Source: an uncultured Acidobacteriota bacterium | Lineage (GTDB): Bacteria > Acidobacteriota > Terriglobia > UBA7540 | Reading direction: 5' to 3' | DNA length: 64,000 bases | Assembly (NCBI GenBank): GCA_963804995.1 | Contig: CAWDSK010000003.1 | Coordinates: 1,344,001-1,408,000, forward strand | Shown here: positions 33,568-39,899 of the stretch, one piece after another | How the letters are laid out: each line of letters begins with the position of its first letter | Position numbering within the stretch: position 1 is the first letter of the stretch | Program-made: the position numbers and the translations under genes | The notes under the pieces: model-generated | Database searches by the model: none | The model's input: only the letters and a program-made list of their open reading frames with translations | Told to the model about the DNA's origin: nothing

Positions 33568-34926
33568 CTACTTCTTCATCAAGTCCAGCACCGCGCTGGT
33601 CAACGCCTTTACCCCGGTCCGCAGGGTGGGCTCCGGCACGGGCGCCCAAAGGCTTGAATGGAGGCCCGGGAGCAGCGTCCCGGTGCGCTGGCTCTCCGCC
33701 AGCTTATCGGGATCGACAGCCCCCAACCAAAGATCGCAGATCGGGATCTGCTGGTTCTCCAGACCGAATTTGCAGAAATCCTCGCTGCCCATAATCGGCG
33801 CCGCCTCAACAACATTCCCCGCGCCCAGGGCTTTTACGAGAACCGGCGCCAAACGGTCCATGAGTTTTGGATCGTTATAGGTCGCAGCGGTGTATTCCGA
33901 ATCGCTAGGCGTGACGATGGGGGCGCGCGATTCCGGAATGCCATTGGCGCTGGCGATACTTTTGGCCATGCGCTCGATGGAGGCAAGAATGCGCTGGCGT
34001 ACCGCTTCTTTGTAAGTGCGGATGGTGAGCTGCAAATGCACGTCATCGGGAATGATGTTGTACCGCGTGCCCCCCTGAATCGATCCCACCGTGACCACGG
34101 CGGGGTCGAAGGGCGAATTCTCGCGGCTCACGATGGTTTGCAGCGCCAGGATGAACTCCGCGGCCGTCACAATGGGGTCCTTGGTCACCTGGGGCGCTGA
34201 CCCGTGCCCGCCAATGCCGCGGATGAAGACATCGACGGAAGTTGAACTGGCCAGCGCATAGCCACGCGTCAAGCCCACCTTGCCGGCCGCCACAGCCGGT
34301 GTATCGTGTTGTGCCAGGACGTAGTCCGGCCGCGGAAAGCGCGTATACAAGCCGTCGTCCAGCATGGCCTTCGCGCCGTTAATGGTTTCTTCCGCCGGCT
34401 GCCCGATCATCACCAGCGTGCCCTGCCATTGGTCCTTGAGTTCCACCAGCAGCTTGGCGGCGCCCAGGAACGCCGTCATGTGAATGTCGTGCCCGCAGGC
34501 GTGCATGACGCTCACCTCTCGCCCGGCGTCGTCCTGGCCGCGGACTTTACTCGCATATGGGAGACCCGTCTTCTCCTCCACGGGGAGCGCATCGAGTTCG
34601 GTGCGGACGAGCACGGTGGGGCCATCGCCATTCTTCATAACCCCCACGACGCCGTATCCCGTCCAATCCGGATGGTTGTTGTATTTGCCCACGTGTTCGG
34701 TGACCGTGAAACCCAACGCCCGAAGTTGGCCGGCCACATAGGCTGAGGTTTTCACTTCGTGATGCGAAAGCTCAGGCGCAGCATGCAGCCATTTGTAGGT
34801 CGCAAGAAGCGATGGCAAATCGCGGTCCACCAAGCCATCAAGTTTGGATTGCTGACTGCGAGCGGCGGGCGCGATCATAAGTGGGGAAATCACCACAAGG
34901 CAGAAGATGGCAGATCGAAGGTTCAC
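33568..34926 (-). CDS. M20 family amidohydrolase (hippurate hydrolase-like), secreted
   Basis: HAAPELS, RTELDALPV, MHACGHD, QPAEE, GHGS, SEDF; GTG start after GGGAGG. Confidence 0.9.
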   Translation of the reverse strand: MNLRSAIFCLVVISPLMIAPAARSQQSKLDGLVDRDLPSLLATYKWLHAAPELSHHEVKTSAYVAGQLRALGFTVTEHVGKYNNHPDWTGYGVVGVMKNGDGPTVLVRTELDALPVEEKTGLPYASKVRGQDDAGREVSVMHACGHDIHMTAFLGAAKLLVELKDQWQGTLVMIGQPAEETINGAKAMLDDGLYTRFPRPDYVLAQHDTPAVAAGKVGLTRGYALASSTSVDVFIRGIGGHGSAPQVTKDPIVTAAEFILALQTIVSRENSPFDPAVVTVGSIQGGTRYNIIPDDVHLQLTIRTYKEAVRQRILASIERMAKSIASANGIPESRAPIVTPSDSEYTAATYNDPKLMDRLAPVLVKALGAGNVVEAAPIMGSEDFCKFGLENQQIPICDLWLGAVDPDKLAESQRTGTLLPGLHSSLWAPVPEPTLRTGVKALTSAVLDLMKK

Positions 34927-35180
34927 AGGATCCTCCCTCAGGAATGGCTGGCTCGCCACTTTCGGCGGGCGGCAATCGATTGCACTGCGTGGCGCAGGGC
35001 GAGCCGCTAGGTCCGCGCCAGTATCGCGGAACTCGAAGGTAGAAGGCAAGGGAAACCGGGGTTCGGGATTGTCAAAGGCACCTGAGAGCCCGCGTAGCGG
35101 GCGTCATCCTGTAGCCCATGGCGAGCCAGCGGCGGCTGAAGATTACGATCCTCACCGCCGAGGTGCTGAGACGCAGAGAA

Positions 35181-35281
35181 AGGCCCACTGGCAGGCTGGC
35201 GCAGAGCGAACGCAGATGTGCGATTCTGGTGCGATTAGATGACGTAAAACTCAGAACTGCGCTCTGATGCGCCAGCCCGCC
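35181..35281 (+). repeat. Palindromic repeat unit containing an unoccupied IS110 target site
   Basis: 35221-35281 matches 35493-35541 joined to 38379-38390 (a second copy split by the IS). Its 5' arm GCTGGCGCAGAGCG is an imperfect inverse of the 3' arm. Confidence 0.8.
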
Positions 35282-35646
35282 TAAGAGACCCCTCATCCGC
35301 TTCGTGCCTCAGCACCTTCTCCCCCTGGGAGAAGGTTGGTAATCAAACCGCCCTCTCCGCGGGGTCGCAGAATCCGCCGTGGCGGGAGAGGGTGTCCCGA
35401 CAAGTCGGGACGCGTGAGGGGTCACTTCGCCAGGCCCTGCGAAAGGGCCGTGGATGAATTAGGCCCGCTGGCGCAGGGTGAGCCCAGCCCTACGATTCTG
35501 GTGCGTTTAGATGACGTGAATCGCAGAGCTGCGCTCTGATGTTATGAAAGCGGCGATGCCTCCTCGGGTGCCGCTAAACTGGAGGTGGTCCAGTTTAGCG
35601 GGCCCTCGGGTTCAGACCGAGAGTTTTGCATCGAGGAGACAAAGCG

Positions 35647-36747
35647 ATGAAGAAGAGTATAACGCCCATTGGAACGCCGGTGGGAGTGGATGTTCACAAG
35701 CGTCGTTGCCAGGTGGTGGAGCTTGATCACGGAGAGATTAAGGCACGGAAGTCGATCGCCAACACGCGGGAGGAGTGGCTGGAGATGTTGACGGAACTTC
35801 CTCCCGACGCCGAGATCGGCCTGGAGGTGAGCACGGCAGGCTACTTTGCCATGAGCGTGCTGGAAGAGGCGGGGTGGCGAGGGCGCGCGCACTGGGTGCA
35901 CACGGCGGGGATCGACAGCAACCGCCGGCAGAAGAATGATCGTTTAGATGCCGAGCGGCTGGCGCGCAAGCTCGCCGCGCACCATCTGGATCCACTGCCG
36001 GAGGCGTGGTTTCCGCCGCCGGAGATTCGCGCCCTGCGTCTGCGCGCACGCCAGCGCTGCTGGTTGGCCCTGCTGCGCACCAAAGCCAAGAATCACCTGC
36101 AAAGCTTGCTGGGGATGCATGGCTTGCAGGCGCCGGGGACCGACCCGTTCGGAGCGGCCGGGGAGAAGTGGCTGGCGGAACAGACCTTGCCGATGCCCTT
36201 GGGCGAAAGCATCCCTCAGATCCAACGCCTGCTGCAGTTCCTGGAGGAGGAGATCGAAATCAGTGAGAAGTACTTGCAGGCGGTGGACGGACAATTCCCC
36301 GAGTTGGCGCTGCTGCGCACAATCCCCAGCATCGGCCCCATCCTGTCCCCGGTGATTTGGAGTGAGATCGGCACGATCGAGCGGTTTCGTTCCGCCAAGG
36401 CCTTGGCCAACGCTACGGGGCTCGTCTCCAGCTTTTACGACAGCGGGGAAGTGAAGGTGTCGGGTCCCATCACCCGCCAGGGATCGCGCTGGCTGCGCTG
36501 GGCCTTCGTCACCGCCGCCCATGTCGCGATTCCATACCCCAATCCTTTCGCGCGGCGCTACCACCGCCTGCGCCGCAGCAAGAAACCCAACGTGGCCAAG
36601 GCCGCCATCGCGCACTCCTTGGCGCGTTGTGCGTATGGAGTTTTGAAGCACGGCTGCCCTTATCGGGAAGACCGTTGGGGCCGCCAAGTCGGCGTACTGG
36701 AGCAGGAAGCCCGTGCTGGCGCTAGGTACACCAAGACCGCGCTCTGA
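35647..36747 (+). CDS. IS110 family DEDD recombinase/transposase
   Basis: VGVDVHK, GLEVST, KNDRLDAERLA, TIPSIGP, YDSG (catalytic Ser region), ITRQGSRWLRWA; GAGGAG RBS. Confidence 0.93.
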   Translation: MKKSITPIGTPVGVDVHKRRCQVVELDHGEIKARKSIANTREEWLEMLTELPPDAEIGLEVSTAGYFAMSVLEEAGWRGRAHWVHTAGIDSNRRQKNDRLDAERLARKLAAHHLDPLPEAWFPPPEIRALRLRARQRCWLALLRTKAKNHLQSLLGMHGLQAPGTDPFGAAGEKWLAEQTLPMPLGESIPQIQRLLQFLEEEIEISEKYLQAVDGQFPELALLRTIPSIGPILSPVIWSEIGTIERFRSAKALANATGLVSSFYDSGEVKVSGPITRQGSRWLRWAFVTAAHVAIPYPNPFARRYHRLRRSKKPNVAKAAIAHSLARCAYGVLKHGCPYREDRWGRQVGVLEQEARAGARYTKTAL

Positions 36748-36757
36748 TAGGGACCTG
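36703..36757 (+). ncRNA. Predicted bridge/seek RNA target-binding loop
   Basis: Stems CAGG..CCC / GGG.CCTG and GGT / ACC enclose GCTGGCGC (36715-36722) and GCGCTCTGAT (36739-36748), which together specify the insertion site GCGCTCTGATGCGCCAGC. Confidence 0.8.
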
Positions 36758-36796
36758 CTCCCGAACAACCTCATGGGGACCAGGACAACCTGGCTA

Positions 36797-37898
36797 TTGA
36801 TTCCTGCATAATAAATGTCCTATACTCCGGCTGGGAGGTGAGTCATGCGCCCAGCCGGAACTCCAGCGGAACTCGAGCGACGGCGTTTGCGAGCTGTCGA
36901 ATTGTTGGCTCAAGGTCATCCCCCCGTGGAAGTAGCGCGGATGGTCGGCGTGGATCGGCGCAGCGTGCGTCGATGGAAAGCGGCCTTCCGAAAGAAAGGG
37001 CGCCCGGCGCTGGAGGCGCGGCCCGCTTGCGGGCGTCCACCCAAATTGTCCGCGTCCTTGACCCGCCGATTGGAGCGCGCGTTGTTGCGCGGAGCGCAGG
37101 CGGCCGGATTTCCCACCGACCTGTGGACCTGCCCGCGCGTCGCGCAGTTGATCGCGCAACGTTTCCGTATCCGTTATCACGTGGACCATATTGGTCGATT
37201 GCTCCATGCGCTGGGTTGGAGTCCGCAAAAGCCCGCCCGGCGGGCCGTCGAGCGGGATGAGGAGGCCATCCGGGCTGGGTCAAGCAAACTTGGCCGGCCC
37301 TTAAAAAAAAGCCCACCGGCTGAACGCCTGGCTGATTTTCCTCGACGAATGCGGCTTTCTCATGGCGCCGCTGGTTCGCCGCAGTTGGCAGCCCCGTGGC
37401 CGGACACCGGTGTTGGTCCAGCGCGGGCGACATCTGCAAAAGGTATCGGCCATTGCCGCCTTGGCCGTGTCTCCCCGCCGCGACCGCGTGCGACTTTACT
37501 TTCGCCTGCATCCCCAGGCCGACATCAGCAGCGACCAAGTCATCGGTTTCCTCCGCTATCTGCACCAGGAATTGCGGGGGCCCTGCCTGCTGGTTTGGGA
37601 CCGTCTCAATGCCCACCGCGCTAAACGCACCACGCAATTCGTCGCCCGCCTTCCGTCACCTGCATACCTTCTTCTTGCCCGCCTATGCCCCCGAACTCAA
37701 TCCCGTCGAGTACGCCTGGGGCTATCTGAAAATGAACCCCCTCGCGAACCGACCGACATTCGAAACTGCGGAATTGGCTGCCCTGGCCCGCCGACACACC
37801 CGGGCGCTGCAGCGCAACCAATCGTTGCTTCGTTCCTTCCTCCGGCACAGCCCACTTTTTTTGCGCCTCACATAGGACATTATTTATGCAGGAATCAA
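36797..37898 (+). mobile_element. IS630 family element
   Basis: 26-bp TIRs TTGATTCCTGCATAATAAATGTCCTA (24/26), TA duplication at 36795-36796 and 37899-37900. Confidence 0.93.
36845..37875 (+). CDS. IS630 transposase (HTH + DDE) in several frames
   Basis: HTH part (GRPPKLS, LWTCPRV, LGWSPQKP), A8G slippery site at about 37303, then FLDECGF, LVWDRL and LPAYAPELNPVE; two extra indels at about 37272 and 37659 (decay or error). Confidence 0.85.
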
Positions 37899-38459
37899 TA
37901 GCCCGTAGAGATGAAAGGGACCGAACCGACTCGGCAAACTCGCATGGCAAGAGCAAGAACCCAACGCCCACGGGGCCGTGCTTCATCCCCGGCAGGCGGC
38001 GGGGAGCCAACCCTCCCCGCCCCCCGGGCTCTACATAAAGGAGGAACGACTATAACTTGGAATAATTCTATAAGATAATACGTACAGAATGGCAGCCGAC
38101 GGCGAAGTCGGCAACCCGCCACTTTGCCGATGGGGTCCGGCGCGTTTTTCAGGCATGGGGAAGCTGTGCCCAGAGCTTGGGAGGGGGGCGACCGCAGGCC
38201 GCCCCGGCATCGTTTCCATCAGCCTCCGACCGGCTATTCCTCAGCGGGTTGCTCGCCAGCAGAGCCCGCCTCCGCTTCACCGGCTGCAGGCCATTCTGAA
38301 GTCGAAGGGGGAAGTTTGTCAAAGGCGATTAAGAAATTCAAAAAATCGGCTTGACACGGCATCGCGGTTTCAGAGATGCGCCAGCCCGCCGCAGGTCAGC
38401 GCTCGCTCATGGGACGTGCAGGCGATTGATTTCAGGGGCTTCCGCGTTTGCCTCGAAAC

Positions 38460-39899
38460 TCACTGTCTATGGGATTGGCCGCCGTGCTGGCGCAGCAACT
38501 CCGCCACGGCCGTCCGGCCAAATCTCACAGCTACGTCCAATGGTGTGGCACCTTGCGTCGTCTCGGCATTGACATTAGCACCGTGGGCCAGCAGCAATTC
38601 CGCGAAGGCCTTTTCGCCGCCGAACGCTGCTTCGTGCAAGGCCGTCATGCCGGTGTCGGAGGTCGCATTGACATCGGCGTTGCTGGCAAGCAGCAGTTCC
38701 GCCACGTCCGTGTTGAAATTCTGCACCGCTATGTACAAGGGTGTATCGCCTCGGAGGCCCCTCTTATTGACATCTGCCTTGTACTCCACTAGCAGCTCCG
38801 CCACGTCTATCATATGGTGCAACTCCGCGGCCTCGGACAGGGGCGTTTCGCGCATGACGTTGTCGGCATTGACATCGGCCTTGGCAGCGAGTAGCAGTTC
38901 CACCACGCCCGCGCGGCCGCTGTGTGCCACCGCCCAGAGCAACGGTGTGCTGCGGGCGTTGTCCTGGGCGTTGACATTGGCCTTGCTGGCGAGCAGCAGT
39001 TCCACCATGTTCCTATCACCGTTGTACGCTGCTATGTGCAGAGGAGTCTGGCCGGATTCGTCTCTGCCGAAGACCAGATCAGGTTTCCTCTTGAGCAGCA
39101 ACCTGAGGGTTTCCAAGTCACCAGCGTCGGCCGTCTCGTGCACTTCGCTGACTCGGTTCGCCCGAACCCCCGCTCCTCCGACGATTTGGATGCCGTTGTT
39201 ACCACCCATGGCGGCCAGCGTGTCTCCGTCATGCAGTGGGTGATCCAGGTGTACTACCTGCCCCCCGAGAACGGGGACTGTGCTCTCCTTGGCAACCGGT
39301 CGAGAGGCTTGAGGCCCGGCCGCAACGTCATGGGAGGCTTTTTGCGCGGCGAGCACGGCCGCCGTCTTCTGGTCGAGCTTACCAGTAACGGGCAAGCCGC
39401 GGTCCGATTGAAACTTCCTTAGAGCTGCCATCGTTCTTGATCCCATCGCTCCGTCAGCTAATCCAGGCGCGTAGCCAAGAGCCTGGAGCTGTTGCTGTGC
39501 TTCCTGCACAGCCTCCTTCGTGCCGCGAGAGCCGACGTTCGAGTAACCGCCGTGCTCGCGCAGGATTTCCATCACGTCCTTGCGACCCTCAGCCGAAGCC
39601 CAATGCAGCGGCGTCCACTCGGCACTGTCCTTGGCATTAACATCGGCATTGCTGGCCAGTAGCAATTCCATTATGTCCTTGTGACCCCTAGCCGACGCCC
39701 AGTGCAGGGCCGTCATGCCGTCGCTATCTTTGCTGAAAACCAAATCAGGGTTTTCCTTGAGCAACGCCTTGACTTTGACCAAGTTGTCATTCCTCGCAGC
39801 GTCGTGAATCTCGCCGCCCAAACCGAGGCCGCTGCATGCCAGCGCGACCAGGATGACGGCGATGAGGCGGATGGTCGGGAAGCAAATGAGGCGATGCAT
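38460..39899 (-). CDS. Secreted ankyrin-repeat protein with a central peptidoglycan-binding domain
   Basis: Signal peptide; many G-x-T-(A/P)-L-H ankyrin units; PG_binding_1-like QQQLQALGY..GLADGAMGSRTMAALRKFQSDRGLPVTG. Confidence 0.88.
   Translation of the reverse strand: MHRLICFPTIRLIAVILVALACSGLGLGGEIHDAARNDNLVKVKALLKENPDLVFSKDSDGMTALHWASARGHKDIMELLLASNADVNAKDSAEWTPLHWASAEGRKDVMEILREHGGYSNVGSRGTKEAVQEAQQQLQALGYAPGLADGAMGSRTMAALRKFQSDRGLPVTGKLDQKTAAVLAAQKASHDVAAGPQASRPVAKESTVPVLGGQVVHLDHPLHDGDTLAAMGGNNGIQIVGGAGVRANRVSEVHETADAGDLETLRLLLKRKPDLVFGRDESGQTPLHIAAYNGDRNMVELLLASKANVNAQDNARSTPLLWAVAHSGRAGVVELLLAAKADVNADNVMRETPLSEAAELHHMIDVAELLVEYKADVNKRGLRGDTPLYIAVQNFNTDVAELLLASNADVNATSDTGMTALHEAAFGGEKAFAELLLAHGANVNAETTQGATPLDVAVRFGRTAVAELLRQHGGQSHRQ

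What the first reader, a model, noticed from the sequence alone, without database searches (positions are those of the whole stretch)
35538..38390. IS110/IS1111-like bridge recombinase whose RNA guide, insertion site and a spare empty target are all readable in one window
Seen: the element is bounded by GATG on both sides, and rejoining the flanks gives GCGCTCTGATGCGCCAGC. The same 18-mer is intact at 35259-35276 in a sibling repeat. At the recombinase 3' end an internal loop (stems CAGG..CCC / GGG.CCTG and GGT / ACC) carries GCTGGCGC (36715-36722, reverse complement of the right target arm) and GCGCTCTGAT (36739-36748, the left arm), together covering all 18 bases. A second loop carries AGAGATG, matching the left side of the predicted circle junction (TCAGAGATG|TTATG); its other strand matches only weakly (AAC). 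Circularisation would create TTGACA-18 bp-GATGTT. Known: IS110/IS1111 DEDD recombinases use such bipartite RNA guides, and IS1111-type elements have a 3' non-coding region and sub-terminal IRs. Inferred and unusual: the target loop lies almost entirely inside the last codons of the ORF (dual coding), and the apparent specificity is long. This is a candidate new programmable recombinase ortholog.
Basis: partly seen in the sequence, partly recalled or inferred. Interest (0 to 1): 0.92.

Follow-up and report, generated by a model that had tools for sequence, protein, structure and literature searches.

The report
RNA-guided IS1111-type jumping gene, confirmed
This is a real insertion sequence of the IS110/IS1111 kind. 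It finds its landing site with two short stretches of its own RNA, and relatives with changed stretches land at correspondingly changed sites, so it is a well-supported new member of a known kind.

Summary
Window 35542-38378 is a 1,733-bp IS110-family element of IS1111 architecture. It sits at GCGCTCTGATG|CGCCAGC in a REP-like repeat, and an empty copy of the site lies at 35259-35276.

- **Copies:** the genome holds 4 copies of this element and 4 of a 66%-identical sibling that uses another site.
- **RNA structure:** across 90 relatives the 3' RNA scaffold covaries; 21 of 26 pairs change on both sides.
- **Guide matching:** the two loop strands track the flanks. I saw at least 6 right-guide classes, each with its cognate flank, and 0 of 2,000 shuffles reached the observed match.
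- **Order of the guides:** the top-strand match lies 5' of the bottom-strand match, as published for IS1111 seekRNAs (PMC11187229).

Caveats:
- The window copy's donor loop is split by a nested IS630-like element.
- The ORF/loop overlap is common in the clade but unconstrained.
- The conserved specificity is about 15-16 bp, not 18.
- The donor loop cannot be tested by covariation.
- RNA expression is only hinted at.

Verdict: new member of a known kind.

Side finding: a roughly 190-250-nt structured module in the 3' non-coding region is shared with IS3-, IS21- and IS256-type elements across Terriglobia and matches no Rfam family.

The parts
35259..35276 (+). Empty copy of the target site (GCGCTCTGATGCGCCAGC) in a sibling REP-like repeat
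   Evidence: It is the only exact 18-mer in the genome. The host repeat family gives 45 matches in the genome.
35531..35541 (+). Left half of the occupied target (GCGCTCTGAT + G of the shared GATG)
   Evidence: The other copies keep only GCTCTGATG.
35542..35646 (+). Left end and 5' non-coding region. It holds the left subterminal inverted repeat AAGCGGCGATGCC (35548-35560) and a perfect 13-bp hairpin (35571-35583 / 35589-35601).
   Evidence: pairs I24 and I12, mapped from L002 by +34040. The LE start GTTATGAA is conserved in every relative where a left end was found.
35647..36747 (+). IS110-family DEDD recombinase ORF (366 aa). Its last ~16 codons overlap the target-binding loop.
36699..36761 (+). 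Target-binding loop. P1 is 36699-36706 / 36754-36761, P2 is 36710-12 / 36750-52, and the P3 hairpin is 36725-27 / 36736-38. The right target guide GCTGGCGC is at 36715-36722 and the left target guide GCGCTCTGAT at 36739-36748.
   Evidence: covariation; guide/flank covariation.
36762..36796 (+). 5' part of the putative donor-binding region: strand CGAACAAC (36762-36769) and the 5' half of its hairpin, cut by the nested insertion
   Evidence: helices 4 and 5 covary.
36797..37898 (+). Nested IS630-like element (1,102 bp) with a TA duplication at 36795-96 / 37899-900 and terminal inverted repeats. Its HTH and DDE_3 domains are spread over three frames. It is the only copy in the genome.
37899..37960 (+). 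3' part of the donor-binding region: hairpin remainder, left donor guide AGAGATGA (37907-37914) and a further covarying hairpin
   Evidence: AGAGATGA is invariant in the 12 sequences of A1, as is the RE end CAGAGATG.
38140..38324 (+). Conserved structured module of unknown function, shared with the 3' non-coding regions of IS3-, IS21- and IS256-type elements in other Terriglobia
   Evidence: No Rfam match.
38351..38378 (+). Right end: -35-like TTGACA (38351-56), right subterminal inverted repeat GGCATCGCGGTTT (38358-70) and the terminal CAGAGATG
   Evidence: The last 26 nt are 91-99% conserved in 65 distinct relatives.
38379..38385 (+). Right half of the occupied target (CGCCAGC)
   Evidence: It is the same in all 4 copies.

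Best explanation
The element is an IS1111-type member of the IS110 family: a DEDD recombinase gene followed by a bridge/seekRNA.

**Target recognition (supported by comparison).** In the RNA an internal loop closed by covarying stems carries two guides. [quoted passage not shown] This directs orientation-specific insertion, without duplication, into one variant of a dispersed palindromic repeat. Crossover lies within the GATG shared by the target and both ends.

**Donor recognition (inferred).** A second region carries AGAGAUGA, which equals the right end, and a weak AAC/AYAAC match to the left end GTTAT. It would hold the circle junction.

**Inferred by homology with ISEc11 and IS621.** These steps are excision to a circle, a junction promoter (TTGACA in the right end, 18 nt, then GATGTT), co-transcription of the recombinase gene and the RNA, processing, and a recombinase tetramer.

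**State of the window copy.** It has an intact ORF, target loop and ends. Its donor region is split by a 1.1-kb IS630-like insertion, so it probably depends on the identical RNA from the three uninterrupted copies.
For: - **Protein family:**
- **Copies and sites:** there are 4 copies of type A and 4 of sibling type B (66% nt identity) in one genome. A sits at GCTCTGATG|CGCCAGC and B at ACCGTGATG|GCTACC. In the same scaffold A carries GCTGGCGC...GCGCTCTGAT and B carries GGTAGCCAT...GAACCGTGAT.
- **Empty sites exist:**
- **RNA structure (12 sequences):** RNAalifold gives 35 pairs, 17 with compensatory changes.
- **RNA structure (90 hits):** the covariance model finds 90 hits in 98 sources. On 81 distinct rows 97.6% of cells pair, against 32-54% with slid partners. 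21 of 26 pairs change on both sides, and 0 of 500 shuffles reach the observed values.
- **Left guide versus left flank:** 64 unique pairs average 3.61 of 4 variable positions complementary, against 2.69 when shuffled (0 of 2,000 shuffles as high).
- **Right guide versus right flank:** 57 unique pairs average 6.19 of 7, against 5.33 when shuffled (0 of 2,000).
- **Fine covariation:** GGATTGCGC pairs with CGCAATCC (L073). GCGTAGCGC pairs with CGCTACGC (L066). GGTAGGC pairs with CCTACC and ATTGTGAT with ATTGTGAT (L104). GTGTCGTGAT matches exactly (L081).
- **Guide class is uncoupled from the protein tree:** 11 changes on 57 proteins.
- **Order and strands of the guides** are as published for IS1111 (PMC11187229, sections 8-9 read). 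The strand rule and rG:dT tolerance are as for IS621 (PMC11208160, passages read).
- **Weak expression hint:** in one wetland metatranscriptome the contig depth over the RNA region is 71-148, against 0-14 over the ORF body, while two DNA runs are flat there.
Against: - There is no direct evidence that the RNA is made, processed or bound. rests on contigs of 88-95%-alike relatives, and the tool warns that such depth cannot rank parts of a gene.
- The donor loop cannot be tested by covariation, because both ends are invariant in this clade. Its right-donor match is only 3-5 nt, and no closing stem is predicted.
- The single-sequence fold has z = -1.47.
- Exceptions: L062 has A-type guides but a B-type left flank. 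L071 and L063 have right flanks lacking the expected CG. L021 has the right flank CGCGGACG. L058 matches only 6 nt on the left. L054 is a deleted relic.
- The right guide sits in a register shifted by 1 nt between the GCGC-type and GCCAT-type loops. I cannot explain this.
- The junction -10 is weak.
Confidence: 0.9

Rival explanations
1. The recombinase recognises the palindromic repeat by protein-DNA or DNA-structure contacts alone. The target-like strings inside the element would then be captured repeat sequence with no guiding role.
For: The targets of both A and B lie in or next to hairpin-forming repeats. The two A strands can pair with each other in the single-sequence fold.
Against: The strings lie in a scaffold whose stems covary. 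They change in step with the flanks in at least 6 classes, down to single-base swaps. One string is sense and the other antisense to the target, as the published mechanism requires.
Confidence: 0.04
2. The window copy is an inactive relic. With its donor region split by the nested IS630-like element it can neither guide itself nor be moved.
For: The insertion at 36797-37898 lies inside covarying helix 4/5 of the donor region. A fourth copy (C6:1008222) has a frameshifted ORF, so decay does occur.
Against: The ORF, the target loop, both ends and the flanking target halves are intact. Three other copies encode the identical RNA region. seekRNA works when supplied separately from the mobilised mini-IS (PMC11187229, section 10 passages).
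Confidence: 0.3
3. The overlap of the ORF tail with the target loop is true dual coding, and the C-terminal peptide has a function.
For: In 60 of 77 relatives the ORF runs past the 5' strand of P1. In 28 of 77 it ends in the left guide strand: at the TGA of its TGAT in 27 and at a TAG in 1.
Against: The stop falls at five different places. Sibling B ends 11 residues after RWGR. The tail residues change with the guide (AGARYTKTAL, GSHRSTKTVP, RSARSTKTAV). The Pfam and NCBIfam matches end before the tail.
Confidence: 0.05

Closest known systems
IS1111-family elements with seekRNA (ISEc11, ISPa11, ISKpn4, ISPst6; Siddiquee et al. 2024, PMC11187229; abstract and sections 6, 8, 9, 13 read)
   Same: DEDD transposase, subterminal inverted repeats, long 3' non-coding region, and insertion without duplication into repeats or hairpins (ISPa11 into REP). 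The RNA has a top-strand match 5' of a bottom-strand match. The junction promoter is the only evident promoter.
   Different: - The host is uncultured Terriglobia.
- The target loop begins inside the annotated ORF.
- The 3' non-coding region is much longer (about 490 nt after the ORF) and carries an extra conserved module.
- In the GCGC-type loops the two matches abut rather than overlap.
- Nothing has been tested at the bench.
IS621 bridge RNA system (Durrant et al. 2024, PMC11208160, passages read; structures 8WT6 etc.)
   Same: The left guide pairs with the bottom strand and the right guide with the top strand. A core is shared by target and donor. rG:dT wobble is tolerated. Right-donor pairing is weak or discontiguous. 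The paper predicts bridge RNAs in 93% of IS1111 elements, in the right end, often with multi-loop donor regions.
   Different: In IS621 the RNA is in the left end, upstream of the gene, and the order of the guides is reversed. The protein similarity is remote (E about 1e-12, C-terminal domain only).
ISPpu9 of Pseudomonas putida (PMC12288879; search listing and abstract start only)
   Same: [quoted passage not shown] This is a precedent for a modular extra RNA in the 3' region.
   Different: I looked for no sequence relation. The module here is shared with other IS families, not found as free-standing copies in this genome.

Membership tests
IS110 family (DEDD recombinases) | N-terminal RuvC-like DEDD domain (PF01548) and C-terminal PF02371 domain with the SG motif | tested here: met
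   PF01548 E 9.5e-13 and PF02371 E 6.2e-20. NF033542 scores 190 bits against a cut-off of 140. YDSGE aligns with ESGS of ISCro4. My assignment of D15/E60/D98/D101 as the DEDD residues rests on recall plus invariance in A2.
IS110 family | Site-specific insertion without target duplication | tested here: met
   Four copies sit at the same site, and the flanks rejoin to a sequence found intact elsewhere. Only the 4-bp GATG is shared by the end and the flank.
IS1111 group | Subterminal inverted repeats of 7-17 bp | tested here: met
   pair I24: 13 nt, 85% complementary, starting 7 nt from the left end and ending 8 nt from the right end. Note that 47 inverted pairs were found in the element in all. 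This pair is singled out by its position and by conservation of the ends.
IS1111 group | Longer non-coding region downstream of the transposase gene | tested here: met
   There are 105 nt upstream of the ORF and about 490 nt downstream in the uninterrupted copy.
Bridge/seekRNA-guided elements | [quoted passage not shown] | tested here: met
Bridge/seekRNA-guided elements | A donor-binding region complementary to both element ends | tested here: inconclusive
   AGAGATGA equals the right end (7-8 nt). The left-end match is only AAC or AYAAC. The ends are invariant, so no covariation test is possible. Of three variant cases, two are wobble-compatible and one is a mismatch.
Bridge/seekRNA-guided elements | The RNA is transcribed, bound by the recombinase and required for transposition | not testable with these tools
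   There is only a weak hint from metatranscriptome contigs.
Bridge/seekRNA-guided elements | A promoter formed at the circle junction | tested here: inconclusive
   TTGACA (conserved in relatives), 18 nt, then GATGTT. This was read. I did not scan the joined sequence.
IS630 family (nested element) | TA target duplication, terminal inverted repeats, and a transposase with HTH and DDE_3 domains | tested here: met
   (the 32-nt ends match in inverted orientation at 94%). The ORF is split over three frames.

The most novel reading that the evidence does not exclude
Downstream of the bridge RNA, the element carries a structured RNA cassette of roughly 190-250 nt (window 38140-38324). The cassette has been exchanged between unrelated IS families in Terriglobia: IS110/IS1111 here, and IS3, IS21, IS256 and possibly IS6 elsewhere. 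It always lies just 3' of the transposase gene and on the same strand. That placement points to a transposon-accessory RNA that has not been described, for example a 3' stabiliser or terminator, a regulatory switch, or an RNA aimed at the host. A second, smaller point is that this clade retargets naturally by exchanging 3' modules between co-resident elements.
Probability: 0.4. Interest if true: 0.7.

Novelty: new member of a known kind. Interest (0 to 1): 0.45.

Why it matters
**For the field of bridge recombinases.**
- The clade is a compact natural experiment. There are about 90 relatives with one scaffold and at least 6 target classes.
- Two classes live side by side in one genome, and filled and empty sites are both readable.
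- It gives ready-made orthologs and loop-swap predictions for IS1111-type systems, which are less studied than IS621.
- The target loop can sit inside the annotated ORF. The covariance-model search in PMC11208160 is described as run in the non-coding ends, so searches of that kind could clip such RNAs.

**What does not change.** The mechanism itself is already known, and NCBI's own model already names the protein an RNA-guided transposase.

**The open item.** The shared 3' module would be the more surprising result if it proves functional.

Tried and rejected
**Bridge RNA and element**
- Rfam 15 gave no hit at E<=1 on window 34500-39500. No bridge-RNA family matched.
- The single-sequence fold is not significant, so I rely on covariation instead.
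- The earlier-findings look-up returned nothing.
- The careful tree search did not finish in 300 s. The quick IQ-TREE tree was used.
- RNA evidence: both RNA runs hold only small shares and are kept as contigs. No starts, ends or strand can be read from them, and parts without cover mean nothing.

**The 3' module**
- I considered a TnpB/IscB-type omega RNA, because of the variable sequence right after a conserved 3' end. I rejected this because the upstream ORFs are IS3, IS21 and IS256 transposases, not TnpB.
- I considered a small ORF (FFRHGE...GYSSAGCSPAE), because 4 of 4 A/B differences in the core are third-position in one frame. I rejected a single ORF because the length of the variable part is 1, 0 or 2 mod 3 in 12, 8 and 1 of 21 instances, and the stems show compensatory changes.
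- I compared it with the Solibacter-1 and Soil-1 motifs (PMC2864571, supplement 5 passages). Their sequences are unlike it.
- Rfam on six other-context loci found only a group II intron elsewhere in L150.
- A long-range 5'/3' closing helix of the module rests on invariant pairs only, so it is not supported.
Full report
**Observation.**
- With one GATG assigned to its right end, the element spans window 35542-38378.
- The flanks GCGCTCTGAT(G) and CGCCAGC rejoin to an 18-mer that stands intact at 35259-35276 in a neighbouring copy of the same repeat.
- ORF 35647-36747 (366 aa) matches PF01548 and PF02371. It also matches NCBIfam NF033542 'IS110 family RNA-guided transposase' at 190 bits against a cut-off of 140.
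- Its closest solved relatives are the ISCro4 and IS621 transposases (E about 1e-12, C-terminal domain, SG motif aligned).
- Window 36797-37898 is a nested IS630-like element. It has a TA duplication, inverted ends, and HTH and DDE_3 domains spread over three frames. It occurs once in the genome.

**Copies in the same genome.**
- A DNA search of the window's own 7.55-Mb assembly found 4 copies of the element at 99-100% identity and 4 copies of a sibling at 66% identity.
- Three type-A copies lack the nested insertion, which gives a native length of 1,733 bp. One of them has a frameshifted ORF.
- All four A copies sit at (GC)GCTCTGATG|CGCCAGC. One left flank reads GCGGCTCTGAT, so only 8 nt on the left are common to all.
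- The four B copies sit at ACCGTGATG|GCTACC(C/A)GC.
- At the same place in a conserved scaffold, A carries GCTGGCGC...GCGCTCTGAT and B carries GGTAGCCAT...GAACCGTGAT.
- Empty sites exist. The 18-mer occurs once, the 16-mer GCTCTGATGCGCCAGC four times, and the B 15-mer once.
- The A target lies in the 3' arm of a dispersed palindromic repeat of roughly 100 nt, which gave 45 matches in the genome.

**Relatives.**
- The protein was found in 16 of 137 genomes of the order. This tally includes the window's own genome and one unpublished genome.
- It was also found in 14 loci of named MAGs, nearly all Terriglobia or Acidobacteriota.
- In metagenome contigs 117 stretches encoded a relative, of which the best 80 were kept.
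- RNAalifold on 12 diverse 3' regions predicts 35 pairs, 17 of them with compensatory changes.
- The structure has an 8-bp outer stem, a 3-bp stem (CCC/GGG or CCU/AGG, 6 sequences each), an internal loop with the two guide strands, a capping hairpin (GGU/ACC or GGG/CCC), then a second hairpin and a third.
- A covariance model built on 14 sequences found 90 matches in 98 sources.
- On the 81 distinct rows 97.6% of cells pair, against 83.4% in shuffles and 32-54% with slid partners. 21 of 26 pairs change on both sides, and 0 of 500 shuffles reach the observed values. That alignment is fitted to the model, which favours the structure. The MAFFT-based result is independent of it.

**Guide and target covary.**
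- Of the 90 hits, 75 had a recognisable left junction and 70 a right junction.
- Right-guide classes and their flanks, as unique pairs:

| Right guide | Right flanks seen |
|---|---|
| GCTGGCGC | 13 CGCCAGC and 1 TGCCAGC (rG:dT) of 17 |
| GGTAGCC(A/C/T) | 32 of 33 GCTACC |
| CGTAGCGC | 2 CGCTACG and 1 TGCTACA |
| GGTAGCGC | 1 CGCTACC and 1 exception |
| GATTGCGC | CGCAATC |
| GGTAGGCA | CCTACCG |

- On the left, guides and flanks agree at the four variable positions. Examples are ACCG, CTCT, GTCT, ATTG, GTCG and ACTG. U/C and G/A differences are readable as wobble pairs.
- Left guide: cognate pairs average 3.61 of 4 variable positions, against 2.69 when shuffled.
- Right guide: cognate pairs average 6.19 of 7, against 5.33 when shuffled. 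In both tests 0 of 2,000 shuffles were as high.
- Relatives are not independent, so the count of distinct classes is the sounder figure.

**Exceptions.**
- L062 has A-type guides and an A-type right flank but a B-type left flank.
- L071 and L063 have right flanks that lack the expected CG.
- L021 has an unrelated right flank.
- L058 matches only 6 nt on the left.
- L043 has a 19-bp tandem duplication of its right end.
- L088's right end was mis-detected by my pattern.
- L054 is an internally deleted relic.

**Guide class versus protein tree.**
- Guide class does not follow the protein tree. On a quick tree of 57 distinct proteins the 7 classes need 11 changes, where 6 is the minimum.
- L059 and L062 are 100% identical over the first ~600 nt and 85-95% identical afterwards, and they carry different guides. 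This fits recombination between co-resident elements, and it would also explain L062's hybrid flanks.

**Comparison with the literature.**
- Siddiquee et al. (PMC11187229; abstract and sections 6, 8, 9, 13 read) describe the IS1111 pattern. The elements have subterminal inverted repeats and a long non-coding region downstream of the gene.
- They also report an RNA that co-purifies with the transposase. It has a top-strand match 5' of a bottom-strand match, and no promoter is evident other than the junction promoter. The element here has that order.
- Durrant et al. (PMC11208160; passages read) state four points that bear on this element:
  - the left guide pairs with the bottom strand and the right guide with the top strand;
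  - the core is covered by all guides;
  - rG:dT is tolerated;
  - right-donor pairing is discontiguous.
- They also predict bridge RNAs in 93% of IS1111 elements, in the right end, often with multi-loop donor regions.
- The weak, unclosed donor region here fits that description. It cannot be tested by covariation, because LE (GTTATGAA) and RE (CAGAGATG) are invariant in this clade.
- Subterminal repeats are present: 13 nt at 85% complementarity.

**The two points called unusual.**
1. **ORF overlap.** Among 77 hits with an intact anchor, the stop falls at or before the 5' strand of P1 in 17 and between P1 and P2 in 13. It falls in the right guide in 5, in the P3 hairpin in 14 and in the left guide in 28.
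   - Overlap is therefore common in this clade, but the tail is variable and follows the guide. It is overlap, not constrained dual coding.
   - It has a practical consequence. The covariance-model search in PMC11208160 is described as run in the non-coding ends (passage). I did not find overlap discussed in the passages I read, and supplements I did not open may bear on this.
2. **Specificity.** The 18-bp match holds at the window site and the spare site. Across independent insertions about 8 nt on the left, the G, and 6-8 nt on the right are matched. This is within the 13-20 bp listed for IS1111 members in a review table (PMC13604230, passage).

**An unexplained detail.**
- The 12-nt 5' loop strand has the same length in all classes.
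- In GCGC-type loops (A and three other classes), the base that pairs with the last G of GATG is loop position 10, and the two guides abut on the target.
- In GCCAT-type loops (B) it is position 9, and the right guide also covers the AT of GATG, so the guides overlap by 2-3 nt.

**Expression.**
- Only contigs could be laid. In one wetland metatranscriptome the summed contig depth over the bridge-RNA region (L002 2639-2882) is 71-148, against 0-14 over the ORF body. Two DNA runs show no such excess.
- The contigs are 88-95% alike, so they come from relatives, and the tool warns against ranking parts of a gene by such depth. I count this as a weak hint only.

**Side finding: a conserved module in the 3' non-coding region.**
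- The same call showed very high depth, in the DNA runs too, at L002 3066-3187.
- This is the core of a conserved module (window 38140-38324). It is 89% identical between A and B, against 66% for the elements overall.
- It is present in 34 of 65 distinct 3' regions of the family and absent from the short-region relatives.
- A 73-nt core was found in 63 of 301 sampled Terriglobia genomes and in 10 of 13 families. This tally includes the window's own genome and one unpublished genome.
- In those genomes it is not next to an IS110-family gene.
- I scanned 28 upstream same-strand ORFs, plus one ORF lying further upstream in L143:

| Pfam result | ORFs |
|---|---|
| rve + HTH_21/rve_3 (IS3-type) | 14 |
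| rve + HTH_23 | 1 |
| IstA + IstB pair (IS21) | 2 |
| Transposase_mut (IS256) | 1 |
| DDE_Tnp_IS240 (IS6; the further-upstream ORF of L143) | 1 |
| No Pfam family | 10 |

- In a three-copy IS3-type element the module lies inside the element, between the transposase gene and the right inverted repeat.
- Its 3' domain shows compensatory changes:
  - CCGG/CCGG alternates with CTGG/CCAG.
  - GCGGG/CCCGC alternates with GCAGG/CCTGC and GCGAG/CTCGC.
  - TGCT/AGCA alternates with TGCG/CGCA and TGCA/TGCA.
- The length of the variable part is not held modulo 3. The module is not in Rfam, and it is unlike the Solibacter-1 and Soil-1 motifs. Its function is unknown.

**Verdict.** The element is a new member of a known kind, in an unusually informative natural series. 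This copy's own donor region is broken by a nested insertion.

Noticed in passing
window 38140-38324 (L002 2996-3180): A conserved structured module lies in the 3' non-coding region. The same module is found just 3' of IS3-, IS21- and IS256-type transposase genes in 63 of 301 sampled Terriglobia genomes. Its stems show compensatory changes, it matches no Rfam family, and its function is unknown.
   Followed up: partly
window 38293-38322 (L002 3149-3178), minus strand: A promoter-like site (TTGACA, 18 nt, CAGAAT; 10 of 12) sits inside the module and points back into it. Both hexamers lie in blocks conserved among the IS110-type copies. It could drive an antisense RNA.
   Followed up: no
window 36797-37898: A nested IS630-like element with a TA duplication, present once in the genome. 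Its reading frame changes at least twice, once near an A8 run at 37313-37320 and once inside the DDE_3 domain. Either it is decayed or the assembly has indel errors.
   Followed up: partly
G000:C6:2029413, C6:1340064, C6:541161, C3:1258436 (L005-L008): A sibling IS (66% nt, 58% aa identity) in four copies. It targets ACCGTGATG|GCTACC, just 3' of a short hairpin (CGGTCAG...CTGACCG). Its ORF stops before the target loop.
   Followed up: yes
alignment A4, loop columns 22-33: The right target guide sits in a register shifted by one base between GCGC-type and GCCAT-type loops. The first type abuts the left guide on the target and the second overlaps it by 2-3 nt.
   Followed up: partly
L059 and L062 (metagenome contigs): These are mosaic elements: 100% identical over the first ~600 nt, then 85-95%, with different guide classes. 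L062 has a B-type left flank and an A-type right flank, as expected from recombination between two inserted copies.
   Followed up: partly
L043 2242-2291: The last 19 bp of the right end (CATGGCAGTTTCAGAGATG) are duplicated in tandem before the target half-site.
   Followed up: no
window 35185-35290 and 35462-35541: Two neighbouring copies of a dispersed palindromic repeat of roughly 100 nt (45 matches in the genome). Only a few copies carry the exact target.
   Followed up: partly
window 35571-35601 and 35605-35630: The left end holds a perfect 13-bp hairpin, followed by a terminator-like hairpin with a T run just upstream of the recombinase start. The sibling element has a different hairpin at the same place. 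This may attenuate read-in transcription.
   Followed up: no
L007:1419-2456 (sibling protein): A sub-threshold NCBIfam match to the TIGR-Tas RNA-guided endonuclease model (E 9.5e-10, 38.8 bits against a cut-off of 100) over residues 123-254.
   Followed up: no
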